DNA of 64,000 bases from Betaproteobacteria bacterium SG8_41 (GCA_001303585.1 LJTT01000007.1:74031-138030), one strand, 5' to 3'; positions 9,941-56,353 are shown, counted from the stretch's first letter. Numbers and translations: made by a program. The notes: generated by a model not told the origin, from the sequence alone.

Positions 9941-10019
9941 TGATGAGTGTTGAATGATGAGTTTTGAATTGAAACGACCCGCTTCAACCCTGCGTTCGTT
10001 CGTCATTCATCAATCATAA
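9941..10019. repeat. Heptad-periodic intergenic element with two arms of opposite polarity
   Basis: Left arm: TGATGAG TGTTGAA TGATGAG TTTTGAA TTGAAAC. Right arm: GCGTTCG TTCGTCA TTCATCA ATCATAA. It fills the moaA-fdhD spacer. Confidence 0.7.
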
Positions 10020-10032
10020 CTCCGCATTCCGA

Positions 10033-10869
10033 ATGGGCAAGACCTATCGCCCAAAATTGACGAACGCCGGGCGCCCGTTGACCTTCGAGGTCGAAGCGGT
10101 CAATGAGCGCGGCGAGCGTTTGGCGACGCCGATCGCGGGAGAACACCCGCTTACGCTTTATCTGGACAAACGCGAGATCGTCACCCTGATGACGCTCGGG
10201 CAGGCACCCGAGGCGCTCACCATCGGCTATCTCCGCAATCAACGCCTGGTCGGCTCGATCGATGAAATCGCCGCCGTGCAGGTCGACTGGGAAACCGATT
10301 CGGTCGCCGTCACCACGCGCAAAGGCGTCAAGGGGCTCCGCGAACGCCTCAGCAAACGCACTGTGACGACCGGCTGCGGACAGGGCACGATGTTCGGCGA
10401 CCTCATGGATGAGATCGATTCGATCAGGCTTCGCGACGACGTGCGCCTGAAGGAAGAGACACTCCACGCGTTGCTCGACGCGGTACGGCGCCACGAGACG
10501 ATCTACAAGAGCGCCGGTGCGGTGCATGGCTGCGCGCTGGCCGCAGGCGGCGAAATCCTGTATTTCGTCGAAGACGTCGGGCGGCACAACGCCGTCGATG
10601 CCATTGCGGGCCTGATGTGGCTGGACCGCGTCGATGGGTGCGACAAGATCTTCTACACCACCGGTCGACTCACCTCGGAAATGGTGATCAAAGCGGCACA
10701 GATGCAGATTCCGTTCCTCGTCTCGCGCTCGGGGCTCACCGAAATGGGACACAAAATCGCCTCCAGGGTCGGCATCACCATGCTCGGGCGCGCCGTGGGG
10801 AAGCACTATTTGCTCTTCACCGGCAACCACCGCTTCGTCAAGCAAATCGGGCCAACCATGCTGGCATGA
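10033..10869 (+). CDS. fdhD: Formate dehydrogenase accessory sulfurtransferase FdhD
   Basis: 278 aa with TTGCGQGTMFG and GRHNAVDAIAG motifs typical of FdhD. Confidence 0.9.
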   Translation: MGKTYRPKLTNAGRPLTFEVEAVNERGERLATPIAGEHPLTLYLDKREIVTLMTLGQAPEALTIGYLRNQRLVGSIDEIAAVQVDWETDSVAVTTRKGVKGLRERLSKRTVTTGCGQGTMFGDLMDEIDSIRLRDDVRLKEETLHALLDAVRRHETIYKSAGAVHGCALAAGGEILYFVEDVGRHNAVDAIAGLMWLDRVDGCDKIFYTTGRLTSEMVIKAAQMQIPFLVSRSGLTEMGHKIASRVGITMLGRAVGKHYLLFTGNHRFVKQIGPTMLA

Positions 10870-10883
10870 TTTGCCGCTCAAAA

Positions 10884-11002
10884 TTTAGAGTTCCAGGTTC
10901 ACCGTTGAGCACTCATGAAGCAGTCAATCCCTCGACCCGGATTTCGGCGCGCAGACCGTAGAACCTTGAACGCGGAACGCGGAACGCGGAACCTTGAACG
11001 CC
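10884..11002. repeat. Heptad-periodic element in the fdhD-mobA spacer
   Basis: Left arm has GTT in a 7-nt register at 10890, 10897 and 10904. Right arm from 10961: GAACCTT GAACGCG GAACGCG GAACGCG GAACCTT GAACGCC. Confidence 0.7.
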
Positions 11003-11592
11003 CGCCCGCCAAAATCACAGGGGTGATTTTGGCGGGCGGGCGGGGCCAGCGCATGGGCGGCGTGGACAAGGGCCTCAAGCTGCTGCGCGGCAGACCGATG
11101 ATTGCGTGGGTCATCGAGCGCTTCGCCCCGCAGGTGGACGAGCTGCTCGTCAACGCCAACCAGAACCTCGACCAATACGCACAACTCGGTTATCGAGTCA
11201 TTCCTGACGCGCTCGAGGGCTTTGCGGGCCCGCTTGCCGGGCTGCAGAGCGCCCTGGCAGAGGCACGCCACGGCCTCGTCGCCACAGCGCCGTGCGACTC
11301 GCCCTACCTGCCGCTCGATCTGATCGAGCGGCTTCACGGCGCGATGCAGCGCGGTGAAGCCGACCTTGCGGTCGCAAAGACGGGCGCCCAGGCGCACCCG
11401 ATTTTTTGCCTTTGCCGCAAGAGCGTCTCGTCCAGCCTGACGGAATTCCTGGCGGGCGGAGGCCGCAAGATCGACGCGTGGTACGCGCGGCTCAAGGTCG
11501 CCGAGGTCGCTTTCGACGACAACCCGGCGGCGTTCAGCAATATCAACACCGAGGCGGATCTCGCCGCGCTCGAGAGCCACCCGCCGGCGTGA
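10915..11592 (+). CDS. mobA: Molybdenum cofactor guanylyltransferase MobA (start uncertain)
   Basis: ITGVILAGGRGQRMGGVDKGL is the MobA N-terminal signature. ATG 10915 would translate the heptad tract. Alternative in-frame starts are TTG 10966 and GTG 11023. Confidence 0.85.
   Translation: MKQSIPRPGFRRADRRTLNAERGTRNLERPPAKITGVILAGGRGQRMGGVDKGLKLLRGRPMIAWVIERFAPQVDELLVNANQNLDQYAQLGYRVIPDALEGFAGPLAGLQSALAEARHGLVATAPCDSPYLPLDLIERLHGAMQRGEADLAVAKTGAQAHPIFCLCRKSVSSSLTEFLAGGGRKIDAWYARLKVAEVAFDDNPAAFSNINTEADLAALESHPPA
11001..11040 (+). promoter_or_regulatory. 18-bp perfect hairpin over the mobA 5' end
   Basis: CCCGCCCGCCAAAATCAC (11001-11018), loop AGGG, then GTGATTTTGGCGGGCGGG (11023-11040). The right arm encodes the conserved VILAGG of MobA. 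Confidence 0.7.
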
Positions 11593-11610
11593 CGCCGCGC
11601 GCGCCCGCTC

Positions 11611-12621
11611 TCAGCCGAGCATCCGCTGCGCTTCGGTCGCGGCGCCCAGGAGCCCGACCCGCGGGTTCATGATGATGCTAACCGGAATGGTCGAGAGAAG
11701 GTCGGCGAAGCGGCCCTTGCCGGTGAATGCCCGCGTGAAGGTCCCGTCCTTGAGCTTCGTCGCCAGTTTTGGCGCAATCCCGCCTGCCAGATAGACCCCG
11801 CCCCGGGCGAGTGTCGCAAGCGCCATATTGCCGGCGAAGGCCCCGTAGGCGCTCGCAAACACATCCAGAGCACGCACCGCGAGCGGATCGCGTTTCGCGA
11901 GGCCGAACTCGCCGATGACTCCGGCCGTGTCGGCATTGTTGCGCGCGGCTTCCTGCAGCTGCTTCGAGGGAATGCCTGCGCCGGATTCCTGCAGAAAGCT
12001 GAATATACGCATCAGCCCCGGGCCAGACACCACACGCTCGTACGATACCCGTCCGAACGTGCGGCGCAGATATACGAGCAACCGGTCCTGCAATTCGTCC
12101 AAGGGCGCGAAATCGATGTGGCCGGCTTCCGAGGCATGCGCCACGTAGCCCTCGCCGTGAGCGGTCAGGAAACCCGTGCCAAGACCGGTTCCGGCCCCGA
12201 TGACGAGCCTCGTGCCTCGGGCAACCGGATAGCCCTCTTGCAGCGTCTCGAGTTCCGTGGGCGCAAGTCGCGGAATCCCCATTCCGGCCGCCGCAAAGTC
12301 GTTGAGCAGCCTGACCTCGGGCACCCCGAGCTCCGCTGCCAGCGCATCGCCCCTCACCTTCCAGCCCAGGTTGGTCAGCGTCACGCTGTTCATCGCAACC
12401 GGCCCCGCGACAGAAAGGCACGCCGCGAGCACGCCGTTGCGGTGCGGTGCCACATCCGGCCGGGCCAGAAAATCCTCGATGATGGTCTTCAGGCTCTCGA
12501 AACGCTGACTCTCGTAGACGGCCTCGGTAGCGACACCGGGCCAGGGCTTGCCCTCCAGCGCAAGAGCAACCGTCGTGCGCGTGCCGCCAACGTCGGCGGC
12601 CAGAATATAGCGCCCGCTCAT
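11611..12621 (-). CDS. glk: Glucokinase
   Basis: ILAADVGGTRTTVAL ATP-binding start; 336 aa; overall resembles the bacterial Glk family. Confidence 0.85.
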   Translation of the reverse strand: MSGRYILAADVGGTRTTVALALEGKPWPGVATEAVYESQRFESLKTIIEDFLARPDVAPHRNGVLAACLSVAGPVAMNSVTLTNLGWKVRGDALAAELGVPEVRLLNDFAAAGMGIPRLAPTELETLQEGYPVARGTRLVIGAGTGLGTGFLTAHGEGYVAHASEAGHIDFAPLDELQDRLLVYLRRTFGRVSYERVVSGPGLMRIFSFLQESGAGIPSKQLQEAARNNADTAGVIGEFGLAKRDPLAVRALDVFASAYGAFAGNMALATLARGGVYLAGGIAPKLATKLKDGTFTRAFTGKGRFADLLSTIPVSIIMNPRVGLLGAATEAQRMLG

Positions 12622-12632
12622 GCAGCCAACCG

Positions 12633-15038
12633 TTACGCTGAAAGAACGGCCCGTTCGTGGCCGGACTCGGCGCCGAGCGCCTCCGGCTCGGAGATGAAGT
12701 AGCCCTGCGCGTAGTCGACACCCATTTCCTTCAAACGCGAGAGCGTTGCCGCGTCCTCCACGGACTCGGCAACGGTCTGCATCCCGAGGATATGGCCAAT
12801 ACGGTTCACCGAATCCACGATCGCATGGTCCATCGGATCGGTTTCCATGTCCTTGATGAACATGCCTGCAATCTTCAGGTAGTCCACAGGCAAATACTTC
12901 AGATAGGCGAACGATGACATGCCAGTGCCAAAATCATCCAGCGCGAAACGGCAGCCCATGCCCTTGAGCTCATGCATCAGCTCGGCCGCCTTGGTGAGGT
13001 TCGAGATGGCTGTCGTCTCGGTGATCTCGAAGCACAGCAGCCCGTGCGGCAGCTCGTAGCGCGTCAGCAGGTTCCGGAGAAAGTCCGGGAAGCTCTTGTC
13101 GTTGATGCTCGCGCCTGAAATGTTTACAGAGTAGAAGCCCCGCTCTCCATGCGCGTCGGTTTCGCGCGGGATGCCTCCGCTCAGCCATTGCCGGTGAAGA
13201 TACTCGACCAGCGTGCTCACGACCCAGCGCTCGATCGAAGTGAGCAGGTTATAGCGCTCGGCCGCCGGCATGAATCCGGTCGGCGGAATGAGATTGCCCG
13301 CGCGGTCCAGCATCCGCACCAGCACTTCGTGATGCGGCGGCATCCCGCGCGCCGGATTCACGGGCATGATGAACTGGCGGTAGAGCCGGAACTGGCCCAG
13401 CTCGAACGCACGGTTGATCTGGGACACTACCTGGAGATCGCTGTGTCGACCGGTGTAGTCGCGGTCCTGCGGACGGTAGACCTGCACGCGATCACGGCCC
13501 CGGTTCTTCGCTTCGTAGCAGCACACGTCAGCAAGCGTGAGCACGTTGTTTGCATCCCGGCTCTCCGCATTGAGCGGGACGAGTCCGATGCTCACCCCCA
13601 CGCTGAAGGTCTTGTCCTGCCAGACGAAGCGGAACTCGCGGATGGTTTCACGCAGGGCATTGGCAACGCGCACCGCCTGTTCGGTCAGGCATGATTCCAG
13701 CAGCGCCCCGAACTCGTCGCCACCGAGACGCGCGAGCGTATCGCTGCCGCGCATCTTGGTCTGCATCAATGACGTCAGCTGCCGCAGCAGCTCGTCGCCG
13801 GCGGCATGCCCGCAGGTATCGTTCACCGCCTTGAAATTGTCCAGGTCGAGGTAGAGCAGCGCATGCTCCTTGCCCTGGGTCTTCGCCGTGTCGATGAGCT
13901 CCGAGAGACGCCGCTCGAATTCGCGCCGGTTGACCAGACCCGTGAGCGCGTCATGGCTCGCCTGCCAGATCAGCTGCTGCGCCATTGCGCGGACCTGGCT
14001 CACGTCGTGGAAGACCACGATCATTCCGTGCACGGTGCCGTCGCGCCCCCGTATCGGCGCGTGCGAGTAGCGGATCGGGCATTCGCGCCCCTTGCGGTCG
14101 ACGAGGCGCACCGAAACGGGCTCGTCCTCGGCCGCCGCATCCGCGCCGCCGGCGAGCGGATCGATCCCGTTTCCGCTCCGCTCGTCGATGACGCGGTAGA
14201 CCTCGGCGAGCGGCTTCCCGTGCGCGTCCTGGGTGCTCCACCCCAGATAGCGCTCGGCCACCGGGTTGAGGTAGTCCACGCGCCCCGAAGCGTCGGTGGT
14301 GATCACACCATCGACGATCGAGTGGAGCGTGACCTCGGCCAGCTCCTTCTCGTGTTCGAGGTTTGCCTCGGTGGCCGCGACCACCCGGATCACCAGCAGG
14401 GCGATCACCGCGCCCGCCAGCAGCGCGAACAGGCCACCGGCGCCGATCAGCAAAAAGCCGTTACGCATGCCCTGGTTCGCGACGGCGACGGCCTGCGCCG
14501 TGGCGCTGTGGTTGGCTTCGAGCAGCCGGTAAAGAGTTTCCTGCAGGCGGCCGTCCGTCAGCACGGCCTGCGTAAGATTGAGTTCGGAGGCAGGCGCGAC
14601 CTGCCCTTTGAGCAGGAGCTGGACAATTTCCTCTCCCACGCCCCGGGCAAGCGCTGCGGCCCTGATCGCATCGTCGCGTGCCGCACGGCTCGCGGCGGAG
14701 ACCGGCAGCTCGCGCAGACTCGTGACCGCACGGTTGTAGATTTCAATCGTCCGGCGATACCGGGCATGGACGTCCGCGCGTTCTTCCGGGGTCGCAGCCG
14801 CAAAAATCCGGTCGATGATCGAGACGCGCTGCCCGTTGCTCAGGAATAGCTCGGATACCGTGCCGATATTGCGGCTCTGCGAATCCGTTACCTCGTTCAG
14901 CCGGCTGTTGAACGACTCGATTCGCGTCATTCCCAGCGCCATAAGCGCCGTCAGCACCAGCAGCAACAATCCGAAACTGAACACCAGCAGGTACTGCGAT
15001 CGGGGCTTCGGCGGATTCATGGGTCGGTTGAGGGCCAT
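12633..15038 (-). CDS. Membrane sensor with periplasmic helical domain, PAS, GGDEF and EAL domains (c-di-GMP turnover)
   Basis: Two TM segments flank a ~170-aa helical sensor region. PAS (HSIVDGVITTD), RLGGDEFGAL (GGDEF), then an EAL-type domain (EVLVRM, CFEITE, DDFGTG). Confidence 0.9.
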   Translation of the reverse strand: MALNRPMNPPKPRSQYLLVFSFGLLLLVLTALMALGMTRIESFNSRLNEVTDSQSRNIGTVSELFLSNGQRVSIIDRIFAAATPEERADVHARYRRTIEIYNRAVTSLRELPVSAASRAARDDAIRAAALARGVGEEIVQLLLKGQVAPASELNLTQAVLTDGRLQETLYRLLEANHSATAQAVAVANQGMRNGFLLIGAGGLFALLAGAVIALLVIRVVAATEANLEHEKELAEVTLHSIVDGVITTDASGRVDYLNPVAERYLGWSTQDAHGKPLAEVYRVIDERSGNGIDPLAGGADAAAEDEPVSVRLVDRKGRECPIRYSHAPIRGRDGTVHGMIVVFHDVSQVRAMAQQLIWQASHDALTGLVNRREFERRLSELIDTAKTQGKEHALLYLDLDNFKAVNDTCGHAAGDELLRQLTSLMQTKMRGSDTLARLGGDEFGALLESCLTEQAVRVANALRETIREFRFVWQDKTFSVGVSIGLVPLNAESRDANNVLTLADVCCYEAKNRGRDRVQVYRPQDRDYTGRHSDLQVVSQINRAFELGQFRLYRQFIMPVNPARGMPPHHEVLVRMLDRAGNLIPPTGFMPAAERYNLLTSIERWVVSTLVEYLHRQWLSGGIPRETDAHGERGFYSVNISGASINDKSFPDFLRNLLTRYELPHGLLCFEITETTAISNLTKAAELMHELKGMGCRFALDDFGTGMSSFAYLKYLPVDYLKIAGMFIKDMETDPMDHAIVDSVNRIGHILGMQTVAESVEDAATLSRLKEMGVDYAQGYFISEPEALGAESGHERAVLSA

Positions 15039-15043
15039 CTTTT

Positions 15044-15817: not shown

Positions 15818-15835
15818 TGTTGTTGGCCCAAAAAC

Positions 15836-17116: not shown

Positions 17117-17135
17117 GTATACCTGCTTGGGCGCG

Positions 17136-23222: not shown

Positions 23223-23232
23223 TGAATCCCGT

Positions 23233-23267
23233 CGATTCGCGATTCACGATGCACGATTTACGGATCT
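23233..23267. repeat. Heptad-periodic tract filling the selU/deacetylase spacer
   Basis: CGATTCG CGATTCA CGATGCA CGATTTA CGGATCT. It ends directly at the GTG start at 23269. Confidence 0.65.
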
Positions 23268-23268
23268 T

Positions 23269-24685: not shown

Positions 24686-24836
<151 letters not shown>

Positions 24837-26271: not shown

Positions 26272-26275
26272 CGCA

Positions 26276-26339
26276 GTTCAAGGTTCCAGGTTTCCAGTTC
26301 CGTGTTCGAACCTTGAACCTTGAACCTTGAACCTTGAAC
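26276..26339. repeat. 64-nt imperfect palindrome made of heptads, between convergent phoH2 and dnaB
   Basis: Left arm: GTTCAAG GTTCCAG GTTTCCA GTTCCGT GTTC. Right arm: GAACCTT x4 then GAAC. By my count 23 of 32 positions are complementary. A CGCGC-GGAA-GCGCG hairpin follows at 26339-26352. Confidence 0.85.
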
Positions 26340-26352
26340 GCGCGGAAGCGCG

Positions 26353-27738: not shown

Positions 27739-27835
27739 GACGCGCGCCGCCGTTGTCTCGACTGTCTGTCCAGTGTGGTCTGAAAGGGAAACGTCGCGCG
27801 CCGAAGTCGCTCGCAACTGAGGGAGAAATCTACAG

Positions 27836-27867
27836 AAAAAAAAGGGCTGTCGCCAGCCCTTTTTTTT
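27836..27867. terminator. Bidirectional rho-independent terminator after rplI
   Basis: A8-GGGCTG-TCGC-CAGCCC-T8, located 30 nt downstream of the rplI stop. Confidence 0.8.
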
Positions 27868-28363: not shown

Positions 28364-28446
28364 AAATTTCAGGTTTCACGTTTCAAGTTTCAGGTTAAGT
28401 TGTGGACCTAGCGAACCTTAAACCTGCAACCTTAGACCCGGAACCA
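28364..28446. repeat. Heptad-periodic two-arm element inside the rpsR-rplI spacer
   Basis: TTTC ends at 28370, 28377, 28384 and 28391. AACC starts at 28414, 28421, 28428 and 28442. The arms have opposite polarity around 28400-28410. Confidence 0.8.
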
Positions 28447-28449
28447 ATC

Positions 28450-29629: not shown

Positions 29630-29712
29630 GGAATCGGAGCATCCCGAAACGCGAATCGAGTAGACCTCCTCCGCGAGTCCTTACGATTTACGATTCAAGA
29701 TTCAGAGCTCAA
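29630..29712. repeat. Weaker heptad element downstream of tpsA
   Basis: GGAATCG...GCGAATCG on the left. CGATTTA CGATTCA AGATTCA on the right (29684-29704). The GAATCG and CGATTC arms are inverted. Confidence 0.5.
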
Positions 29713-29717
29713 GGAAG

Positions 29718-32306
29718 TTAGGAGCAACCGCGACTCGTGCACTGCCGACCGCCGGCGCCCATGCCAGCAGCGACAGCCGTCGCCGCCTGGCTCTTGCTGC
29801 TTCCCGTGCAGACCGGCTTCTTCGCGGTTTCCTTCTTTTCTTCCTCGGTATCCTTGGTGCCCGATGACACTGCCACGGGCGGCGTAACGGCCTGGTCGGT
29901 TGATCCGACCAGGGTGTTTTGAGGGGACACCGATGGTGGCTCAACCCCGGGCGGCAGTTCGCTCGATTCGCCGCTTGACCCGCCGGTCGACCCACCGCTT
30001 GACCCGCCGCTTGAGCCACCGCTTGACCCACCGCTTGACCCACCGCTTGAGCCACCGGAGCCGCTAGAGCCGGAACACAGCGCCCCATTCAACGAACAGA
30101 CACCGCTGCCTGAATTGATAGATCCGCTTGAACCCAGAACAAGGCCGCCGGGAGCAGTGATCGTCAAGCTGTCGTTTCCCGCCGTTGTGTCGATCGTCTC
30201 GTTGAGGTTGACAGTGCCCGATGTCGAAATCACGACGTCCTGGTAGGCAATAATCGGGCGGTCAAGCGTGATGCCGTCTGCTCCTGCGATCAGCTCAAAG
30301 GACGCACCGGACTCCGAGGAAAGCGGAATCGCTCCCGCAGTGCTGTTGGTGATCGATTTAACGGTGAGTGTCTGGGCATTGAGCCCCCGTCCATCGCTTC
30401 CGGCCGTCGTTGCCTCTCCAATCACCAGCCGGCCGGTCGTTTTGAGCCTGGCGATGTCATCGCTCGAAAGCTGGGTCGCACCGGGCGCGCCGACTCCAAG
30501 GTCGAGCGTGCCGGCCGCGCTTAGCGAAATTTGTATTCCGCCCGTTCCGGCGGCGACGTCAAAGTTCCCCAATTCAATTCCACCAGCATTCGCGCCAGAG
30601 CTTCTGTTTCCCCCACCGATCAGCGTGATCGATCCATCATTGACAAGCCCTAAGGTTCCTCGCGTGCTGACGGCCGCAACGATCTGAACTTGACCCGACC
30701 CATCCCCGCCCCCAGCGGGAGAGTGCGGCGAGTCCGCTTCCAGGTGGATGTCACCGCCGTTCGTCGTGATCGTGGCGTTAATGGTGATATTGTTGCCGGC
30801 CTGAGCGACGAAGCCCGCGCCGGTGGTCGTCAGATTGACTGCATTGGAGACCGTGATGTCGTTGGTCGCTTGCAGCACTACCGTCGTGCCAGCAGCATCG
30901 AGCGTGCCCGGGTCGATCGTCTGTAGCGTGCCGGGATCGGTGAAGGCATCCACATCACTCACGGCCGCGCCGCTGGCCGTCGTGGCAACGTTGATATTGT
31001 CGGGGTCGAGCAGAAGTGTGCCCGGCGTACCGCCCGGCGCCGAAGCATTGACCTTCGCCGCAAAATCGAGCGCGTTCTTGCTAGAGACCTCTATGAAGCC
31101 GCCGTCGCCCGATTGGCTGCCGCCCTTGGCGCTGATCGTGCCATAAGCGCGCGTTGCATCATCCGACCATACGATCACCCTGCCCCCATCGCCGCTCGTG
31201 ACCGCATCGGCTGTGATGTTCGCCTCCGGCCCGACATAGGTGCGATAGGCGTTCTGCACCTCGGGGTTCTTGCCCTCGAAGTCGCCCCCCACCAGCACCG
31301 TGCCCCCTGCCGTCTCGCCCGACACGTCAATGTTGGCGTGTCCAATCAGCCCCACTTTATTGCCCAGCACCTCGACCGTGCCCCCCGCGCCTTCGCTGCC
31401 CTTCGCCTCTATCGCTCCGGCCACCAGCGTGGTGTCACCCGAGTCCACCGTGACGCTGCCGCCCTTGGGACCATTCGCCGCGGTCACGCTGCCCGCCTCC
31501 AGCGTCGCGCTCTGCGTCGCTTTCAAAACGATGCGACCATCCTCGGTCACCTGCGCGCTGTTCGCCTGGATCGTGCCGCCCTGCGTGATCAGCCCCGCGT
31601 AGATGCCGACTCTCCCGGCGTCGGCCGCAATGTGGCCCAGGTTCACCGCCGCGTTGTCCGGCGCAGTGACCTCCACCCTCAGGTTCGGCGTGCCCGGGTC
31701 AACCAGCTCCACGCTCTTGCCCGCCGCCAGCACCACCTCGCCTTGCGGGCTCTTGATCAGCCCCTTGTTCTCAACACCCGCGCCCACCAGGTAGACCTGG
31801 CCCCCGCTCGGGGTCGTGATCGCCCCTTCGTTGACCACCGCGCCGGCGCCGACGGTCTCGGCAAACTTCAACTTCCCGCCCAGGAAGTCCGCGTCCGAGA
31901 GCTTCAGGGTGGACGCCACCAGCCCCGCCACATCGACCTGCGCGTTGACACCAAAGACGATGCCGTTGGGGTTGATGAGAAAGACCCGGCCGTTCGACTG
32001 CAGCGCGCCCAGGATCGCCGAGGGGTTCTGGCCGATGACGCGATTCAATACCGCGCTTGAGTCCGACTGCTGCAGGAAGCGCGTAATCTCGTTCGCCCCG
32101 ACCGAGAAGCTCTGCCAGTTGATGATGGCGTTGGGACTGTTGGTGATCTGCAGCAGGTTGCCCTGCTGGTGGATGCTCACCTGGCCGTTGGCGACCGCGG
32201 CACCCGTGGGATTCGCAAGAACGACCGGCGTCGCAAAGCAGGAGGCTACCGCCAAGGCGATTGCAGCGCGGCGCAGCCGACGACGGGCGTTGCGTTTTGG
32301 CCTCAC
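29718..32306 (-). CDS. Two-partner-secretion exoprotein (TpsA) with filamentous-haemagglutinin-type TPS domain
   Basis: TPS domain NGQVSIHQQGNLLQITNSPNAIINWQSFSVG...NRVIGQNPSAILGALQSNGRVFLINPNGIVFG, then beta-helix-like G/A/T/V-rich repeats, a (GGSS)n linker and a Cys-containing tail. The ORF opens at 32399. GTG 32306 has GGAG 8 nt upstream and gives the signal peptide VRPKRNARRRLRRAAIALAVASCFATPVVLA. Confidence 0.85.
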   Translation of the reverse strand: MRPKRNARRRLRRAAIALAVASCFATPVVLANPTGAAVANGQVSIHQQGNLLQITNSPNAIINWQSFSVGANEITRFLQQSDSSAVLNRVIGQNPSAILGALQSNGRVFLINPNGIVFGVNAQVDVAGLVASTLKLSDADFLGGKLKFAETVGAGAVVNEGAITTPSGGQVYLVGAGVENKGLIKSPQGEVVLAAGKSVELVDPGTPNLRVEVTAPDNAAVNLGHIAADAGRVGIYAGLITQGGTIQANSAQVTEDGRIVLKATQSATLEAGSVTAANGPKGGSVTVDSGDTTLVAGAIEAKGSEGAGGTVEVLGNKVGLIGHANIDVSGETAGGTVLVGGDFEGKNPEVQNAYRTYVGPEANITADAVTSGDGGRVIVWSDDATRAYGTISAKGGSQSGDGGFIEVSSKNALDFAAKVNASAPGGTPGTLLLDPDNINVATTASGAAVSDVDAFTDPGTLQTIDPGTLDAAGTTVVLQATNDITVSNAVNLTTTGAGFVAQAGNNITINATITTNGGDIHLEADSPHSPAGGGDGSGQVQIVAAVSTRGTLGLVNDGSITLIGGGNRSSGANAGGIELGNFDVAAGTGGIQISLSAAGTLDLGVGAPGATQLSSDDIARLKTTGRLVIGEATTAGSDGRGLNAQTLTVKSITNSTAGAIPLSSESGASFELIAGADGITLDRPIIAYQDVVISTSGTVNLNETIDTTAGNDSLTITAPGGLVLGSSGSINSGSGVCSLNGALCSGSSGSGGSSGGSSGGSSGGSSGGSSGGSTGGSSGESSELPPGVEPPSVSPQNTLVGSTDQAVTPPVAVSSGTKDTEEEKKETAKKPVCTGSSKSQAATAVAAGMGAGGRQCTSRGCS

Positions 32307-32633
32307 GCGCACATCTCCGAGCGTCGAGAAAACGTCGCACAGCGGAAAACACGTCCGCTGGACCGTTGATCCTGAAAATTCAATTCCACCCCCGTGCAAG
32401 TCAAATCAGCGCCTTAGCAAGCTTACTTCAAGCGGCGCTCCCGCCGCTCGAGCAACCTCGGCAGCTCAGGACGTTATCCATGCAAAAACCGGGCCAATAT
32501 CACACAACACGTGTGCAGAAATTCACGAAACAGATTTCGGCTCCGAGACCCGCGACCAACGTGCGCTTCACGGTGCTTGCCCCGGCGCTTATCTGCATTT
32601 AGCTGCGCCTAATTCTAGTCTTCCAACCAGGAT

Positions 32634-35458: not shown

Positions 35459-35480
35459 CGAATTACGATTTGCGATTCAC
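35459..35480. repeat. Short heptad tract in the rnr-rlmB spacer
   Basis: CGAATTA CGATTTG CGATTCA. Confidence 0.45.
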
Positions 35481-37697: not shown

Positions 37698-37784
37698 GCC
37701 CAGGTGGCGGAATTGGTAGACGCACCAGGTTCAGGTCCTGGCGCCAGCAATGGTGTGGGGGTTCGAATCCCTTCCTGGGCACCA
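37698..37784 (+). tRNA. tRNA-Leu (anticodon CAG), class II with long variable arm, CCA encoded
   Basis: Acceptor GCCCAGG pairs with CCTGGGC. Anticodon stem CCAGG/CCTGG with loop TTCAGGT. T-arm GGGGGTTCGAATCCC. 3' ACCA. Confidence 0.9.
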
Positions 37785-37796
37785 CTCCTTTGATCT

Positions 37797-37874
37797 TAAA
37801 TTATGAATTTTGAATGTTGAATTGCAGCGCACTTCATTCGACATCGAACATTTGACATTCAAAATTTAACATTG
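37797..37874. repeat. Heptad-periodic two-arm element between tRNA-Leu and the purA stop
   Basis: TGAAT at 37804, 37811 and 37818. CAT in register at 37835, 37842, 37849, 37856 and 37870. The arms are partly complementary. Confidence 0.75.
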
Positions 37875-45701: not shown

Positions 45702-45805
45702 GTTAGAAGGGCTCTACCGCAAAGGCGCGAAGACGCGAAGGAACACAAAAATACGTGAAGCTTTGCGTTCTCTTTGCGCCTCGGCGTCTTGGCGGTTTTC
45801 TTAAG

Positions 45806-47595: not shown

Positions 47596-47674
47596 CTCTT
47601 ATCCTAACTACGCGATTCGTGAATGTTGAGCCGAAAAACCGCAAAACCGGCTTCGCGCTTCCGCGAGCCACGAT

Positions 47675-48952: not shown

Positions 48953-49049
48953 GGCAGACGGTGGCTGGAAGATTGCTGCTTCAGAATGGCAAACCAAAAA
49001 ATATCGTTATGTTGCGGTCACGGTGCAGCGTGAACGGCTCCCCTGCCGC

Positions 49050-52146: not shown

Positions 52147-53231
52147 CGTGCCACCTCCTCCACATTGCGGCGTTGCCTGCGCTTCGTGCGGTCTTGCACC
52201 TGCCCCGCCAGCTGTCCGCAGGCCGCCTCGATGTCATCGCCGCGTGTCTTGCGGATCGTGGCCAGCAGACCTGCTTGCATCAAGACGTCGCGAAAACGGG
52301 CAATGGAATCAGGAGCGGAGCGTACGTAGCGCGAATCCGCGAAGGCATTGAACGGGATCAGGTTGATCTTGCAGGGCACGTCCTTCACGAGCGACACCAG
52401 CTCGCGCGCATGGCCCACGCTATCGTTTACGCCGCCCAGCATGACGTACTCGAACATGATGAAGTTACGCGGCGCCCGGTCGAGGTAGCGCACGCACGCG
52501 GCGAGCAGCTCCTTGATGGGATATTTGCGGTTGATCGGCACCAGACGATCCCTGAGCTCGTCATTGGACGCGTGCAGCGAAACCGCAAGCGCGACCGGAC
52601 ACGCGTCCCGCAGCCGGTCGATGCCGGGCACCAGACCCGCGGTCGAGACCGTAACGCGGCGCCGGGAGAGCCCGTAGGCCAGATCATCGAGCATGAGCTC
52701 CAGCGCCGCCACGACGTTGTCGAAATTCGCGAGCGGCTCGCCCATGCCCATCATCACCACGTTGCTGATTGGACGATCGGCGGAGACGCCCCGGCCCAGG
52801 CATCGGTTCGCCCACCATAACTGGCTGATGATCTCCTCCGTCGACAGGTTCCGGTTGAAGCCCTGCGCTCCCGTCGAGCAGAACGAGCACTCGAGTGCGC
52901 ACCCGGCCTGCGACGATATGCACAACGTGCCGCGGTTTTCCTCTGGGATAAAAACAGTCTCGATTGCATTGCCTGTGCCGACGTCGAGCAGCCATTTATG
53001 CGTGCCATCACCGGCCGTGCTGTCGCGTATGACTCGCGGAGCCGTAATGCGCGCGCAATCCTGAAGCCGCGTGCGCAGCGCCTTCGACATGTCAGTCATG
53101 AGGTCAAAATCGTCAACGCCGGCCTGATGGATCCAGCGCAGCAACTGCCGCGCGCGATACGGCTTCTCGCCCAAGCCGGCGCAGAAGGCCTTCAGTCCTT
53201 CCTGATCGAGCCCGAGCAGGTTCACCGTCAT
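52143..53231 (-). CDS. rlmN: Dual-specificity RNA methyltransferase RlmN (radical SAM)
   Basis: [32 protein letters not shown] 53231 was chosen because the listed ORF (to 53432) overlaps ndk. Confidence 0.93.
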
Positions 53232-53244
53232 CACCACGTCGCGT

Positions 53245-53670
53245 TCAGCGCGAATAAATTTCCTGTTTGGAAAAAAAATAGGCGATTTCTGTTGATGCCG
53301 TCTGCGGCGAATCTGAGCCGTGCACCGCGTTGGCATCGATGCTTTGAGCGAAATCCGCCCGGATAGTGCCCTTCTCGGCTTTTCGGGGATCGGTTGCCCC
53401 CATGAGGTCACGGTTTTTCTGAATCGCGTCATCGCCTTCCAGCACTTGAATCATGACCGGCCCCGACGTCATGAAATCAACCAAGTCCTTGAAAAACGGC
53501 CGTTCTCTGTGCACCTCGTAGAACCCCTCAGCCTCGGCGCGCGAGAGCCACTTCATGCGCGCCGCGACGATCTTCAGTCCCGCCTGCTCGAATCGTCCGT
53601 AAATGCTGCCAATGACATTCTTGGCGACGGCATCCGGCTTGATTATTGACAACGTACGTTCGACTGCCAT
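53245..53670 (-). CDS. ndk: Nucleoside diphosphate kinase
   Basis: [21 protein letters not shown]...NAVHGSDS. Confidence 0.97.
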
Positions 53671-53875
53671 TAAGCTTCCCCCCGCTGATGCGTGTACTTT
53701 ACGCCGAGCGCGAAGGATAACACGGTAAGGCTTTGAAATGAAGAGATTTCAGGCCAAATTCAGTCCTCGGTACGACCCTGGATCCACCGCCTGTTTGGAG
53801 CCGCACGGCCCGGCACAGCATCAGCTCTGGCGGGCCGCCCCTCGGCCTAGCCCTACGATCACGAGACGGGCACGG

Positions 53876-55285
53876 CTACCGCGCCGCACGCTTCCATTCG
53901 GGTCGGACCGCGGCCTCATCCGCGCGCGCCTGGAAAGCACTATCGATGCCGACTTCGGGCACCCAGACCAAAACATTCCCGCAATAAATCAGAGGCAAGC
54001 GGTCTCGTTGCCAGGGTGCAACGCGCGCTTCCTGCAGCAGGTTTTTAAGGCTGCGACGCGGCCGGCGGGCGTCCGGCTGGAATCGCTCGCCGCCCTGTCG
54101 CGAGCGGATCGTCACAGGCCCTCCACCCAAGCGCGCCAGGCTGATGCCATGATCGCGGCTGCGCCGAAACAACAGGGTGCCGCCCAACTCGGGCAGATCG
54201 ATCTTGCGCTCGCCGCGCCAGCGCCGAATATACCCTTCGGACAGCGGCCGACTGGCGGGAACCACGTGAAGGCGATCAGCGTAACGCCGTAGCACGCTGT
54301 CATCGAGCACGACAGCGACACGGGCATCCTGGCGTGCGGTCAGGACCTGCCGCAGCGCCTCCTCGAGCCGCTCGACATTCGGCATCATCGCTCCCCGGCG
54401 TGCCAGGAAAAAACGCAGCAGGTTGCGAGCACGGGCGCTCGAAAGGCCACGAAGCGGCGCTACCGCGAGTGTTTCGCCGTCGAACCAGTCCGCCGCATCC
54501 TGCTCGGCAAGCTCATCCAGCAGCTCGCCGGCTTCGGCCATATGGCCCGCGCTTCGCGCCAAAGTGGCGCGATAAGAAGGAAAGCGCCGGGCAATCACGG
54601 GCAGCACTTCGTGGCGCAGGAAGTTGCGGCGGAAGTCGACGCTGGCGTTGCTCTCGTCTTCGATCCATTCAAGGCGCCGCACGCGGGCGTACTCGAGAAT
54701 CTCGGTGCGCGTCACATCAAGCATCGGCCGCAATATGGCTGGTGATGGGCGAGTCCCGCGCGGGCACTGGACGCCTTCCGCTTTTAGCCTTTCGCGTTTC
54801 GCTTTCCGGATAAGCGGCATGGCCGCAAGCCCTCTCACGCCGGCGCCCCGCAGCATCTGCAGCAACAGCGTCTCGACCTGATCATCCTGGTGCTGCGCGA
54901 GAACGATGTAATCCGCCTGCTGCGCGTTGAACACCGAATAGCGCGCCGCGCGCGCGGCAGCCTCCACACTGTCGCCGGGCGCCACCCGCACCCTCACACT
55001 TGCATACGGAATCTTTCGCGCCCGGCACTGGCGGCGGCAAAACGCCTCCCAAAGTCCCGCGTTCGGGCTCAATTGGTGATTCACGTGCAAGGCGCCCACG
55101 TGGACGCGCAGCCGGGCAGCAACGCGCAGCAGGCAATCAAGCAGCACGATCGAATCAACGCCCCCACTCAATCCCACTACGAGCTGGTCACGAAACGAAA
55201 CAATCGGGGCAAGCCGCGCCAGCAGGCGCGCGGCCAGGTCGGGAGGACGCGCCCTACTTTTGCTCGACTTCCTTGAACCTGCCAT
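53876..55285 (-). CDS. tilS: tRNA(Ile)-lysidine synthase TilS
   Basis: PP-loop VGLSGGVDS. 469 aa. Conserved accA-tilS order. 32-nt overlap with accA. Confidence 0.88.
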
Positions 55286-56222
55286 GGCCGACGAGCCGGT
55301 CGAAGCGCCGCTCGAGCAGCTCGTCGAGGGGAATGTCCTTGAGCTGCCGCCAGGTATCCTGCAGAGCCTTCTTGAGGTTTTGCATCATCGCGTCGTAGTC
55401 ACGATGCGCGCCGCCCAGCGGCTCGTTGACAATCTTGTCCACGAGACCCAGCGCTTTCAGGCGGGGGGCTGTGATACCAAGCGTCTCGGCCGCCTCTTCG
55501 GCGTAATCAGCGCTCTTCCACAGGATCGACGCGCAGCCTTCCGGTGAAATCACGGAGTACGTGGCGTATTGCAGCATGAGCAGCGCGTCCCCCACCGCGA
55601 TGGCGAGCGCGCCCCCCGAGCCGCCTTCCCCGATGACGGTGCAGATAATGGGAATGCGCAACTCGGTCATCGTGTAAAGATTACGGCCGATTGCTTCCGA
55701 CTGACCGCGCTCTTCGGCGCCAACGCCCGGGTAGGCGCCCGGCGTATCGATAAAGCTGAACACGGGAATGCCGAAGCGCTCTGCAAGCTTCATGAGGCGA
55801 ATCGCCTTGCGATAGCCTTCGGGCTTTGGCATGCCAAAGTTGCGCAGGATCTTCTCCTTGGTGTCGCGCCCTTTCTGGTGCCCGATCACCATGCACGGCT
55901 CGCCATTCATCCGGGCGAGCCCGCCCACGATCGCCAGGTCATCGGCAAAGGTACGGTCGCCATGCAGCTCCTCGAAATCCGTGAACAGCCCGGCGATGTA
56001 GTCGAGTGTGTAAGGCCGCTGCGGGTGGCGCGCGACTTGTGCGATTTGCCAGGCAGTGAGCTTGGCGTAGATGTCCTTGGTAAGCGCCTGGCTTTTCTTT
56101 CGCAGCCGCGCGATATCCTCGGAAATGTCGAGTGCCGAATCGTCCTGCACGTAGCGCAACTCGTCGATCTTCGCCTCGAGTTCGGCAACGGGCTGCTCGA
56201 AATCCAGAAACGTCGTCTTCAT
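55254..56222 (-). CDS. accA: Acetyl-CoA carboxylase carboxyltransferase alpha subunit
   Basis: [23 protein letters not shown]...[23 protein letters not shown]-like core. Confidence 0.96.
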
Positions 56223-56311
56223 CGCCTGTCAATGATACCGGATCGGATGCCGTGACGGGGAAAGGACGAGGAGCGGCAAGACCGGCCGCGGACTGCGAAC
56301 CGGCTGAAACG

Positions 56312-56353
56312 CAACATTCAACATTCAACATTCAACATTCAACATTCAATATC
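56312..56353. repeat. Tandem heptamer (CAACATT)x5 plus one degenerate unit
   Basis: Perfect units start at 56312, 56319, 56326, 56333 and 56340, then CAATATC. It lies between the ggt stop and the accA start. Confidence 0.9.

What the first reader, a model, noticed from the sequence alone, without database searches (positions are those of the whole stretch)
9941..56353. Family of heptad-periodic (GAANNNN / NNNNTTC)n elements occupying many intergenic spacers
**What the sequence shows**
- At least 11-12 spacers in this window are built from 7-nt units that keep a GAA or TTC trinucleotide in a strict 7-nt register while the other four positions drift.
- Loci: 9941-10019, 10884-11002, 23233-23267, 24688-24836, 26276-26339, 28364-28446, 29630-29712, 35459-35480, 37797-37874, 47610-47672 (weak) and 56312-56353.
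- Example units: AGTTTCC x9, GAACCTT x4, CAACATT x5, GAACGCG x3, CGATTCA-type, TGTTGAA-type.
- They are less GC-rich than the flanking genes.
- Most loci consist of two arms of opposite polarity, so DNA or RNA could form long imperfect hairpins.
- They lie between convergent genes, inside operons (rpsR-rplI) and in 5' leaders (phoH2, mobA).

**Interpretation**
- They are not CRISPR (7-nt unit, no spacers).
- They carry no transposase.
- I cannot match them to REP/BIME, Correia or ERIC-type elements.
- Their positions resemble those of REP elements (mRNA-stabilising or terminating hairpins).
- The 7-nt triplet register also resembles what ring-shaped RNA-binding proteins read. HutP, for example, recognises triplets separated by 4 nt. 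That analogy is speculation.
Basis: seen in the sequence. Interest (0 to 1): 0.8.

Follow-up and report, generated by a model that had tools for sequence, protein, structure and literature searches.

The report
Hypervariable 7-base repeat arrays between genes
About a third of the gaps between genes in this uncultured estuary-sediment betaproteobacterium are filled with arrays of 7-base repeats, usually as two mirror-image arms, that gain and lose whole units between near-identical strains; this is a new example of a repeat class known since the 1990s, and its function and preference for 7 bases remain unexplained.

Summary
Period-7 self-similarity in the 29 spacers of at least 30 nt is 8.4 SD above dinucleotide shuffles. 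Eight spacers hold a strong run (0.19 expected); a ninth is partly hidden in an over-long mobA ORF call. One listed locus (47610) is not supported and one (35459) is weak.

The arrays are heptanucleotide simple-sequence repeats. Contigs 99.6-100% identical to the window carry 7, 9 or 10 AGTTTCC units and 4, 6 or 7 GAACCTT units. Relatives at 87-99% L9 identity have arrays in the same spacers with different units and copy numbers. An 85% relative with the same gene order has 22-28-nt spacers.

Most loci have two arms of opposite polarity. Only 2 of 11 fold better than shuffled sequence. There is no covariation, no U-tract and no Rfam match.

The (T)GAA(C) core is real: 15 of 19 arrays against 24% expected. 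It is not universal, and its conservation within arrays is not significant (P=0.10).

The class is already described: cyanobacterial STRR, Xanthomonas (GGGANTN)n with frequent inverted pairs, and Beggiatoaceae TAACTGA.

Best explanation: slippage-driven arrays on small palindromes, tolerated in non-coding DNA. A heptad-reading protein is not excluded. Verdict: new member of a known kind, moderate interest.

The parts
9941..10019 (.). Two-arm degenerate heptad element between moaA and fdhD. Left arm: TGATGAG/TGTTGAA x5. Right arm: opposite polarity x5.
   Evidence: Lag-7 best run 15 of 21. RNA fold z=-1.37. Identical in same-species contigs L097, L099 and L100.
10884..11002 (.). Two-arm element between fdhD and mobA. 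Short GTTC-type left arm (10888-10908). Right arm: GAACCTT GAACGCG x3 GAACCTT GAACGCC (10961-11002). The right arm lies inside the longest mobA ORF call.
   Evidence: TRF. Lag scan 23 of 28. Fold z=+0.18.
23223..23268 (+). 46-nt selU to 293-aa-gene spacer made almost wholly of CGATTCN heptads (5 units), preceded by a short GAATC of opposite polarity.
   Evidence: Best run 17 of 21. Identical in L224 and L225; a related AATCGNG array is present in L230.
24688..24757 (+). Perfect (AGTTTCC)9 array directly after the ahpC/TSA stop codon. This is the hypervariable arm.
   Evidence: TRF 9.7 copies, 100% matches. 9 copies in window, L090 and L094; 7 in L089; 10 in L091. 5 in L223, about 2 in L224/L225. 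Replaced by (GAAACCT)8 or 9 in L226/L227.
24793..24834 (+). Degenerate opposite-polarity arm (CTGGAAC TTTGAAC TCAAAAC TCGAAAA TTGAAAC TCGATTA). It ends at the phoH2 Shine-Dalgarno sequence GGGAGG.
   Evidence: No indels among strains. Conserved with substitutions in L223-L230.
26276..26342 (.). Two-arm element between convergent phoH2 and dnaB: (GTTCNNN)5 followed by (GAACCTT)4. It is the only locus with a strongly stable hairpin.
   Evidence: Fold z=-5.14. GAACCTT copies: 4 in window, 6 in L081, 7 in L089, 5 in L223, about 10 in L224. A 46-nt central loop is present in all others but missing in the window.
28364..28447 (.). Two-arm degenerate element filling the rpsR-rplI spacer: (NNGTTTC)4-5 ... 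(GAACCTT-type)5.
   Evidence: Invariant in 6 same-species contigs. One whole unit (7 nt) shorter in L226, L229 and L230. No compensatory pairs. Fold z=-0.68.
29630..29713 (.). Two-arm degenerate element (GAATC / GATTC type). It lies 3' of the TPS-domain gene and immediately upstream of the -35 box of the rpsF operon promoter.
   Evidence: Promoter TTGACT-16-TATAAT at 29613-29586 on the minus strand. Element present in L224; replaced by unrelated sequence in L226 while the promoter is conserved.
35459..35480 (-). Weak, decayed heptad array (minus-strand GAATCGC AAATCGT AATTCGT) after the RNase R stop codon.
   Evidence: 13 of 21 matches only. The same spacer holds strong two-arm arrays in L226 (TGAGTGG x4 / CCACTCA x4) and L230 (TGAATGG x7 / ACTCACC x4).
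37797..37874 (.). Two-arm element between the 3' end of tRNA-Leu and the purA stop codon: (TGAATNT)4 ... (NAACATT)6.
   Evidence: Fold z=-2.65. tRNA-Leu at 37698-37784. AACATTC array conserved in L226 and L229.
56312..56353 (+). Single-arm perfect (CAACATT)5 array in an intra-operon spacer on the minus strand.
   Evidence: TRF 5.4 copies, 100% matches. 21 of 21 run. No partner arm found; fold z=+0.35.
47610..47672 (.).
   Evidence: Best lag-7 run is 11 of 21, below other lags. TRF reports only an 8-nt pattern here.

Best explanation
**What it is**
- The elements are heptanucleotide simple-sequence-repeat arrays of the STRR / Xanthomonas-GGGANTN kind.
- Most are built as two arrays of opposite polarity around a short unique centre.

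**How it works**
- Shown: the arrays gain and lose whole 7-nt units, as replication slippage would produce. Perfect arrays differ in copy number between near-identical strains. Degenerate, interrupted arrays are stable.
- Shown: across a clade (ribosomal protein L9 at least 87% identical) the arrays persist in the same spacers, while the unit sequence and copy number turn over. A syntenic relative at 85% has minimal spacers. The arrays are therefore clade-specific additions, not parts of the operons' basic machinery.
- Inferred: the paired arms arise because arrays nucleate on small pre-existing palindromes at gene ends. Both arms then expand, with slipped or hairpin intermediates and intrastrand template switching keeping them alike.
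- Inferred: the arrays are confined to non-coding, mostly non-promoter spacers because a 7-nt step would shift a reading frame.
- Inferred: most have no sequence-specific function. A few, such as the dnaB/phoH2 and tRNA-Leu/purA loci, make stable stem-loops that may act incidentally like REP hairpins.

**Left open**
- The clade-wide preference for a (T)GAA(C) core is real but unexplained.
- The preference for a 7-nt unit is unexplained here, as it is in the literature.
For: **Whole-unit gains and losses between strains**
- (AGTTTCC)n has 7, 9 or 10 copies in contigs 99.7-100% identical to the window. The rest of the spacer is invariant.
- (GAACCTT)n has 4, 6 or 7 copies, plus a 46-nt loop indel.
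- L226 and L227 differ by exactly 7 nt.
- The rpsR-rplI element is exactly one unit shorter in three lineages.
- Degenerate arrays show no indels among strains.

**Persistence with turnover in relatives**
- L223-L230 carry 4-14 period-7 arrays per 10-20 kb, against 0-1 at other non-triplet periods.
- Units differ at orthologous spacers: GGAAACT, GAAACCT and GGCGAAT; TTCAAGG and GTGACCA.

**Absence outside the clade**
- The 85% relative has the same gene order with spacers of 22-28 nt.
- Eighty other betaproteobacterial loci (1.33 Mb) have 14 period-7 runs, against 8-9 at periods 5, 8, 11 and 13.

**Growth or collapse on a palindrome**
- The dnaB/phoH2 spacer is a 22-nt GTGAC-TG-GTCAC palindrome in L228, 2+2 units in L229 and about 5+4 units in L230.

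**Against a conserved structure or a terminator**
- Folding z-scores are mostly non-significant.
- None of 26 pairs shows a compensatory change.
- No terminator-like site coincides with an array.
- No Rfam family matches.

**Published parallels**
- Xanthomonas heptamer arrays are intergenic, often in inverted pairs, and vary in length between species (PMC4692102).
- 24% of GAAC arrays in unrelated metagenome contigs have an in-register GTTC partner within 250 nt.
Against: - Neutral slippage does not by itself explain why 7-nt units outnumber 5- and 8-nt units.
- It does not explain why about 75-79% of arrays in this clade keep GAA/TTC while the other positions and whole units are replaced.
- It does not explain why arrays persist in the same spacers across roughly 10% protein divergence.
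- Template switching between arms is inferred, not shown.
- The direction of the 22-nt to 153-nt series (growth or collapse) is not resolved.
- Some copy-number differences could be assembly artefacts. Several contigs end at or within the arrays. The loop-less window version of the dnaB/phoH2 element is seen only in the window.
- No expression data were available, so a regulatory effect cannot be excluded.
Confidence: 0.6

Rival explanations
1. The arrays are binding lattices for a protein that reads nucleic acid in 7-nt or 7-bp steps and recognises the (T)GAA(C) core. On duplex DNA this would resemble the omega repressor of pSM19035, a ribbon-helix-helix dimer that binds each 7-bp heptad in direct or inverted arrays, or a nucleoid protein that prefers A/T-rich DNA. 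On RNA it would resemble HutP reading NAG-N4 repeats. These comparators rest on my own knowledge.
For: - GAA/TTC is in 15 of 19 window arrays and 42 of 56 arrays of clade relatives, against 22-24% expected.
- The core is kept while whole units are replaced at orthologous spacers.
- Some arms keep 4 invariant phases next to 3 variable ones: 10961, 26276 and 28413.
- Direct and inverted arrangements both occur, as with omega heptads.
- Other genomes have their own preferred cores: GGGANTN in Xanthomonas (PMC4692102) and TAACTGA in Beggiatoaceae (PMC4679880).
Against: - Phase clumping of mismatches is not significant overall (P=0.10).
- Several arrays of the same clade lack GAA: GTAAGCG, CCAGTGA, GTGACCA and TGAGTGG.
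- Arrays are absent from a syntenic relative and from most related genomes. No conserved regulon is therefore implied.
- The loci flank functionally unrelated genes.
- No candidate protein was identified or is testable from 64 kb.
- For an RNA reader, each transcript carries both polarities.
Confidence: 0.17
2. The arrays are REP-like structural elements. The two arms pair in RNA, or extrude as DNA cruciforms. They would protect 3' ends, separate the decay of cistrons, or terminate or insulate transcription.
For: - Two-arm architecture at 7-8 of 10 loci.
- Stable hairpins at the two convergent-end loci, z=-5.1 and z=-2.65.
- Positions after stop codons and inside operons, and none in divergent promoter spacers.
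- The pair type is preserved between relatives, as reported for Xanthomonas.
Against: - Nine of 11 loci do not fold better than shuffles.
- The variable positions of the two arms are not complementary.
- None of 26 pairs shows a compensatory change, and the covariation term is +0.44.
- No U-tracts follow the arrays.
- Single-arm arrays exist, at 56312 and at L099:18910-18977.
- A canonical intrinsic terminator is used in the neighbouring rplI-dnaB spacer.
Confidence: 0.13
3. The perfect arrays are contingency (phase- or rheostat-variable) loci. Changes in copy number would tune expression of the downstream gene, for example phoH2, as 7-nt repeats do at the Haemophilus influenzae hmw genes and the Vibrio cholerae ctxAB promoter.
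For: - Copy number differs among co-occurring strains: 7, 9 or 10, and 4 to about 10.
- The AGTTTCC array lies in the leader or upstream region of phoH2.
- Published heptanucleotide contingency loci exist (listed).
Against: - No promoter hexamers flank or span the variable array.
- The variable arm lies about 100 nt upstream of the Shine-Dalgarno sequence, directly after the ahpC stop codon.
- The other variable array lies between convergent 3' ends.
- The flanking genes are housekeeping genes, not surface or host-interaction genes.
- Most arrays are degenerate and stable.
Confidence: 0.06
4. The elements are copies of a small mobile element (MITE or REPIN-like) dispersed by a transposase encoded elsewhere in the genome.
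For: - The same unit types recur at several loci. GAACCTT occurs at 10961, 26308 and 28413. GAATCGN occurs at 23233, 29630 and 35459. CAACATT occurs at 37850 and 56312.
- The unit GAGTGAT is shared with L005 at a different locus.
Against: - There is no shared sequence beyond the 7-nt unit, no terminal inverted repeats, no target-site duplications and no constant length.
- Orthologous comparisons show gradual change in place.
- No transposase gene was noticed in the window, but its ORFs were not scanned against protein-family libraries.
Confidence: 0.04

Closest known systems
Xanthomonas (GGGANTN)n / GGGAATC heptameric intergenic repeats (Rehm et al. 2015, PMC4692102)
   Same: - 7-nt unit with heterogeneous units around a conserved core.
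- Almost all intergenic, rare between divergent genes, in a high-GC genome.
- Many loci arranged as two arrays of opposite polarity (70-75 of about 185).
- Length differs between related genomes while the locus and the pair type are preserved.
   Different: - The core here is A/T-rich, (T)GAA(C), with no G-tracts. The G-quadruplex explanation proposed for Xanthomonas cannot apply.
- Several unit families coexist.
- Density is higher: about 10 loci in 64 kb, against about 186 per roughly 5-Mb genome.
- Paired arms are the majority here.
Cyanobacterial STRR (short tandemly repeated repetitive) heptanucleotides. Calothrix/Nostoc examples are cited in PMC4692102; the unit sequences are from my own knowledge.
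   Same: - Tandem 7-nt units.
- Several unit families per genome.
- Intergenic and inside operons.
- Function unknown.
   Different: - Different phylum and different units.
- Few paired or inverted arrays are reported in Nostoc.
Beggiatoaceae TAACTGA direct repeats (MacGregor 2015, PMC4679880)
   Same: - Heptamer direct repeats.
- Abundant in spacers, including ribosomal-protein operons.
- Lineage-restricted but phylogenetically scattered.
   Different: - A single unit in 2-6 copies, mostly just upstream of start codons.
- Essentially no inverted pairs (1 of 170).
- Proposed there as a translational-regulator site. Here positions are mostly after stop codons and units are diverse.
REP/BIME extragenic palindromes
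   Same: - Intergenic and transcribed.
- Located at 3' ends and inside operons.
- Palindromic arrangement.
- Lineage-specific abundance.
   Different: - REPs share a 20-40-nt genome-wide consensus and are mobilised by RAYT transposases.
- These loci share only a 3-5-nt core, are internally periodic, and evolve in place.
HutP target RNA (UAG-N4 repeats) and omega-repressor heptad operators of pSM19035 (both from my own knowledge)
   Same: - Recognition lattices with a 7-nt or 7-bp step.
- Omega accepts both direct and inverted heptads.
   Different: - Different motifs: UAG, and WATCACW.
- Those are single dedicated regulatory sites next to the regulated promoter or terminator, not dozens of spacers.
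- No cognate protein is known here.

Membership tests
Heptameric intergenic SSR (STRR-like / Xanthomonas type) | Head-to-tail arrays of 7-nt units at many loci of one genome | tested here: met
   TRF finds 8 arrays. The lag scan finds 13 regions. One further array lies in 9 kb beyond the window.
Heptameric intergenic SSR (STRR-like / Xanthomonas type) | Period 7 over-represented relative to other unit sizes and to shuffled sequence | tested here: met
   13 regions at period 7, against 0-1 at periods 4, 5, 8, 10, 11 and 13. z=8.4 against dinucleotide shuffles.
Heptameric intergenic SSR (STRR-like / Xanthomonas type) | Confined to non-coding DNA | tested here: met
   All strong arrays lie in spacers. 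The two coding hits (54767, 58891) are GC-rich and chance-like. 10961-11002 overlaps only a doubtful 5' extension of the mobA ORF.
Heptameric intergenic SSR (STRR-like / Xanthomonas type) | Copy number changes in whole units between strains or relatives | tested here: met
   7, 9 or 10 copies. 4, 5, 6, 7 or about 10 copies. 8 versus 9 copies in L226/L227. A one-unit indel.
Xanthomonas/Nostoc G-rich subtype | At least four G3-4 tracts able to form a G-quadruplex | tested here: not met
   Units such as AGTTTCC, GAACCTT, CAACATT and CGATTCA contain no G-tracts.
REP/BIME | A 20-40-nt imperfect palindrome with a genome-wide consensus sequence | tested here: not met
   The loci share only the heptad core, and arms and loops differ at each locus.
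REP/BIME | Associated RAYT (TnpA-REP) gene in the genome | not testable with these tools
   Only 64 kb plus flanks of the genome could be read.
CRISPR | 23-50-nt repeats separated by unique spacers of similar length | tested here: not met
   Units are 7 nt, head to tail, with no spacers.
MITE / Correia / ERIC | Defined-length element with terminal inverted repeats and target-site duplication, inserted as a unit | tested here: not met
   Orthologous spacers show gradual unit turnover and 7-nt indels, not presence or absence of a block.
Intrinsic terminator | GC-rich stem-loop followed by a U-tract | tested here: not met
   No terminator-like site falls on an array. Nothing T-rich follows the hairpins. 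A canonical A8-stem-T8 terminator exists in the rplI-dnaB spacer.
Structured cis-regulatory RNA (Rfam) | Match to a curated covariance model, or covariation supporting a fold | tested here: not met
   Rfam gathering and E-value scans find only tRNA-Leu and a sub-threshold hit outside the arrays. None of 26 pairs is compensatory.
HutP-type antiterminator site | Two sets of three UAG triplets spaced by 4 nt, upstream of a terminator, plus a hutP gene | tested here: not met
   The period matches, but the triplet is GAA/TTC, both polarities occur, no terminator is adjacent, and the sites lie in many operons. The presence of a hutP gene is not testable.
Phase-variable contingency locus | SSR within the promoter spacer, 5' UTR control element or ORF of the regulated gene | tested here: inconclusive
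   Copy number varies. No promoter was found around the variable arm. No expression data are available.

The most novel reading that the evidence does not exclude
The arrays are the genomic footprint of a clade-specific factor, not passive microsatellites. That factor would read, or write, nucleic acid in 7-nt steps with a (T)GAA(C) core. It could be a lattice-forming DNA- or RNA-binding protein, or a repair or replication activity that templates heptad addition on palindromes. The same kind of factor, with other specificities, would underlie STRR, the Xanthomonas GGGANTN repeats and the Beggiatoaceae TAACTGA repeats.
Probability: 0.12. Interest if true: 0.8.

Novelty: new member of a known kind. 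Interest (0 to 1): 0.4.

Why it matters
**The open question**
- An excess of 7-nt repeats in bacterial intergenic DNA was reported in 2007 (as cited in PMC4692102).
- It has been described in cyanobacteria, Xanthomonas and Beggiatoaceae. Neither the preference for seven nor any function has been explained.

**What this lineage adds**
- It is an unusually dense case: about 10 loci in 64 kb, roughly 17% of the spacer DNA.
- It is free of G-tracts, so it argues against the G-quadruplex explanation as a general one.
- Natural strain variants exist that differ only by whole units.
- There is a graded series of relatives, from a 22-nt palindrome to arrays of 5+4 units, and a syntenic relative with 22-28-nt spacers that leave no room for arrays.
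- A complete 3.3-Mb genome (CP070703.1) is available.

**What becomes testable**
- Phylogenetic profiling for a 'reader' or 'writer' gene becomes feasible.
- Slippage rates can be measured.

**Practical point**
- These arrays break short-read assemblies. Several contigs end in them.
- They also mislead gene callers, as with the mobA start.

Tried and rejected
**Collection scans as controls**
- I searched GAAC-N3 x5 in metagenome contigs.
- In viral contigs I searched the same pattern, two other cores (GACA, AGCA) and two other periods (8 and 5).
The counts therefore say nothing about whether GAAC or period 7 is special in those collections.
- Only the content of the fetched contigs was used.

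**Conserved core within arrays**
- A permutation test of mismatch clumping by phase gave P=0.10. I dropped this as positive evidence.

**Structure, terminators and known RNA families**
- RNA-structure hypothesis: folding of 11 loci and RNAalifold on five lineages gave no general support.
- Terminator hypothesis: the consensus scan found none at the arrays. The scan also missed the obvious A8-stem-T8 terminator at about 27835-27866, probably because it extends the stem into the A/T runs.
- Rfam: gathering and E-value modes returned nothing.

**Orthologous spacers in species representatives**
- In the 16 nearest species-representative genomes, only L005 and L006 have arrays at the orthologous spacers. 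These genomes were too distant to follow turnover, so I used closer metagenome relatives instead.

**Ideas considered and dropped**
- Stop codons in all three frames, through TGA in a 7-nt register. This fails for AGTTTCC/GGAAACT.
- CsrA GGA sites, IHF, OmpR, the Fur 7-1-7 box and the LexA Cheo box. I compared these consensus sequences from memory and none fits in motif or period.

**Literature and data gaps**
- Mrazek et al. 2007 could not be read. It is cited only through PMC4692102.
- One relative (P0048) returned a gene map but no DNA.

Full report

- Tandem Repeats Finder reports 7-nt arrays at 10968, 23233, 24688 (AGTTTCC x9.7, perfect), 26308 (GAACCTT x4.6), 28367, 29681, 37799 and 56312 (CAACATT x5.4).
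- A scan for s[i]=s[i+p] in 28-nt windows (at least 19 matches) gives 13 regions at p=7. It gives 0-1 at p=4, 5, 8, 10, 11 and 13. Multiples of three give 2-6 regions, which reflects coding periodicity.
- After building a GC3-based gene map, I pooled the 29 spacers of at least 30 nt. Their lag-7 identity is 0.313, against 0.255 +/- 0.007 in 300 dinucleotide-preserving shuffles (z=8.4). Lag 14 gives z=6.1.
- Eight spacers contain a run of at least 14 of 21 matches. Shuffles give a mean of 0.19 and a maximum of 2. A ninth array (10953-11002) is hidden inside an over-long mobA ORF call.
- Locus 47610-47672 is not supported. Locus 35459-35480 is weak in the window but credible from orthologues.
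- The arrays are about 43% GC in a window of about 63% GC.
- They make up roughly 17% of the spacer DNA. This is the sum of the listed elements over 4.5 kb of spacers.

**2. The GAA/TTC register and the two arms**

- Trinucleotides that recur at i, i+7 and i+14 are dominated by GTT/AAC and TTC/GAA. At other periods the background CGC/GCG dominates.
- Oriented to one polarity, the arm consensus units read GAACCTT, GAACGCG, GAAACTG, GAAACTT, GAATCGT, GAATGTT, GAATTTT and GAGTGAT.
- GAA/TTC is present in 15 of 19 detected window arrays and in 42 of 56 arrays of clade relatives. Composition predicts 22-24%. GAA/TTC ranks first among trinucleotides, followed by TCA/TGA and AAC/GTT. The preferred core is therefore (T)GAA(C).
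- The core is not universal. GTAAGCG, CCAGTGA, GTGACCA and TGAGTGG arrays occur in the same genome or clade.
- Clumping of mismatches into particular phases within arrays is not significant (P=0.10).
- Seven or eight of ten loci consist of two arrays of opposite polarity. Both orders occur, GTTC...GAAC and GAAC...GTTC.

**3. Organism and relatives**

- The L9 protein of the window is 100% identical to that of 'Betaproteobacteria bacterium SG8_41'. That name refers to an estuary-sediment MAG of Baker et al. 2015 (PMC4411801).
- No species-representative genome is closer than 85% in PhoH2 identity.
- Eighty related betaproteobacterial loci (1.33 Mb) have 14 period-7 runs, against 8-9 at periods 5, 8, 11 and 13. 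That is background, and about twenty-fold below the density in the window.
- Only L005 and L006 have arrays at orthologous spacers.

**4. Population variation**

- Exact-protein look-ups returned contigs from other samples that are 99.6-100% identical to the window (BLAST).
- The perfect AGTTTCC array has 9 copies in the window, L090 and L094, 7 in L089 and 10 in L091. Every other base of the spacer is identical.
- The GAACCTT arm of the dnaB/phoH2 element has 4 copies in the window, 6 in L081 and 7 in L089. L081, L089, L223 and L224 also carry a 46-nt central loop that the window lacks.
- Degenerate arrays have no indels in any of these contigs.
- Perfect tracts that change in whole-unit steps, next to stable interrupted tracts, is the behaviour expected of slippage-prone SSRs.
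- One caveat applies. Several contigs end at or within the arrays, so assembly effects cannot be fully excluded.

**5. Evolution across the clade**

Syntenic loci were fetched from relatives with 99% (L223, complete genome CP070703.1), 98% (L224/L225), 90% (L226/L227), 89% (L228), 88% (L229) and 87% (L230) L9 identity. All carry 4-14 period-7 arrays per 10-20 kb and 0-1 at other non-triplet periods. The arrays sit in the same spacers but differ in sequence:

| Spacer | Window lineage | Relatives |
|---|---|---|
| ahpC-phoH2 | (GGAAACT)9 | x5 in L223; about 2 in L224/L225; (GAAACCT)8 or 9 in L226/L227; (GGCGAAT)n/(CCATTTC)n in L229 |
| dnaB/phoH2 | (TTCAAGG)n | degenerate GTTC-N3/GAAC-N3 arms in L226; 22-nt GTGAC-TG-GTCAC palindrome in L228; 2+2 units in L229; (GTGACCA)5...(CGGTCAC)4 in L230 |

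- The rpsR-rplI element is exactly one unit shorter in three lineages.
- A relative at 85% identity has the same gene order with spacers of only 22-28 nt (gene map only).
- The arrays are therefore clade-specific additions. They persist at a locus while unit and length turn over.

**6. What the arrays are not**

- Only 26272-26352 (z=-5.1) and 37785-37874 (z=-2.65) fold better than shuffles. The other nine loci have z between -1.6 and +0.65.
- RNAalifold on five lineages of the rpsR-rplI spacer finds no compensatory pair among 26 predicted pairs, and the covariation term is unfavourable.
- No terminator-like site coincides with an array, and no T-tract follows the hairpins.
- The neighbouring rplI-dnaB spacer holds a conserved canonical bidirectional terminator and no heptads.
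- Rfam finds only tRNA-Leu.
- There is no shared long sequence, no terminal repeats, no target duplications and no CRISPR-like spacers. No transposase gene was noticed in the window, but its ORFs were not scanned against protein-family libraries.

**7. What is known**

- Rehm et al. 2015 (PMC4692102) state that heptameric SSRs were found over-represented in many bacterial genomes in 2007.
- They describe (GGGANTN)n arrays in Xanthomonas. There are 186 and 183 loci in the two genomes, and 70-75 lie in convergent inverted pairs. The arrays are mostly intergenic and rare between divergent genes. [quoted passage not shown]
- They also describe Nostoc GGGGAYT arrays and cite the Calothrix heptanucleotides (STRR).
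- MacGregor 2015 (PMC4679880) describes TAACTGA arrays in Beggiatoaceae, cyanobacteria and Bacteroidetes. That paper proposes S1, Csp or CsrA binding.
- The present elements match this class feature by feature. They differ in lineage, in the A/T-rich core (no G-quadruplex is possible), in density and in the predominance of paired arms.
- In 120 metagenome contigs fetched with GAAC-N3 x5 (GC 34-75%), many hold several period-7 arrays. Examples are 14 in 6.4 kb of L156 and 8 in 9.1 kb of L153.
- In those contigs, 34 of 140 GAAC arrays have an in-register GTTC x3 partner within 250 nt. The two-arm heptad architecture therefore recurs across unrelated bacteria.
They give no information on relative abundance.

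**8. Mechanism**

- Best supported (confidence 0.6): slippage-driven heptanucleotide arrays that nucleate on small gene-end palindromes and expand or collapse in both arms. They are tolerated only where a 7-nt step cannot shift a reading frame or disturb a promoter. A few make hairpins that may act incidentally.
- Shown: whole-unit gains and losses, persistence at a locus with unit turnover, absence from the outgroup, and lack of structural covariation.
- Inferred: the palindrome origin, template switching between arms, and neutrality.
- Unexplained: why seven, and why the (T)GAA(C) core is retained.
- Rivals: a heptad-reading protein lattice (0.17), REP-like structural function (0.13), contingency loci (0.06) and a mobile element (0.04).

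**9. Verdict**

- The finding is real and well localised, but it belongs to a described and still unexplained class. It is a new member of a known kind, with an interest score of 0.4.
- Its value is as a tractable natural series for attacking the old 'why heptamers' question.

Noticed in passing
window 29971-30072: A 12-nt tandem repeat (CCGCTTGACCCA x7.2, 86% matches) lies inside the 893-aa ORF 29718-32399 (minus strand). Its orthologue in L226 carries a TPS (two-partner-secretion) domain. A period that is a multiple of three implies a repeated tetrapeptide in a secreted exoprotein.
   Followed up: no
window about 27835-27866 (rplI-dnaB spacer): A canonical bidirectional intrinsic terminator (A8-GGGCTGGCGACAGCCC-T8), conserved in all clade relatives. 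The consensus terminator scan missed it. A sub-threshold Rfam hit (STnc40, 30.7 bits against a gathering score of 45) overlaps it and is probably spurious.
   Followed up: partly
window 29613-29586 (minus strand): A near-consensus sigma-70 promoter (TTGACT-16-TATAAT, 11 of 12 matches) for the rpsF-priB-rpsR-rplI operon. The promoter and the leader downstream of it are conserved in L224 and L226, while the heptad element just upstream is not.
   Followed up: partly
window 10915-11030: The longest mobA ORF, also the start called in public contigs, begins at ATG 10915 and would translate the GAACGCG/GAACCTT array. The conserved MobA N-terminus (ITGVILAGG) begins near 11017, and no Shine-Dalgarno sequence precedes 10915. 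The true start is uncertain and the array may be partly translated.
   Followed up: partly
window 26310 / L081:12041-12103 / L089:5075-5144: The window lacks a 46-nt central loop and 2-3 repeat units of the dnaB/phoH2 element that every other assembly carries. The junction falls at GTTC|GAAC. This is either a real hairpin-deletion allele or an assembly collapse. Contigs L090 and L081 from one sample both break at this point.
   Followed up: partly
L005:9892-9989: A more distant relative (PhoH2 81% identical) has a two-arm heptad element directly upstream of phoH2. One arm reads CATCACT x4. This is the reverse complement of the window's GAGTGAT unit at 9941. It also contains the ATCAC core of the omega-repressor heptad WATCACW (my recollection), which is probably a coincidence.
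   Followed up: no
window 26300-26315, 29630-29712; L230:1526-1637: Several units (GGTTCGA, GGTTCAA, CGAATCC, CGATTCC) resemble the universal tRNA T-arm/T-loop sequence GGTTCGAATCC, and the T-loop itself is 7 nt long. No evidence links the two.
   Followed up: no
L223:8923-9022: The complete-genome relative CP070703.1 has a masked run of N upstream of rpsF. It also has a different gene neighbourhood there (TctABC, GntR) from the window, so there is a synteny break next to the ribosomal-protein operon.
   Followed up: no
L075:7587-8208 and L079:7553-7608 (Thiobacillus MAGs): G-rich heptads of the Xanthomonas/Nostoc kind (GGGGAGC, GGGGAAT, CAGGATT) occur near phoH2 in Thiobacillus. G-rich and A/T-rich heptad families therefore both exist within the Betaproteobacteria.
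   Followed up: no
L103:589-1367: This metagenome contig (60% GC) has long arrays of TTTAGGG/TTCAGGG/TTGAGGG. TTTAGGG is identical to the plant-type telomere repeat, so the contig may be eukaryotic and not comparable with the bacterial arrays.
   Followed up: no
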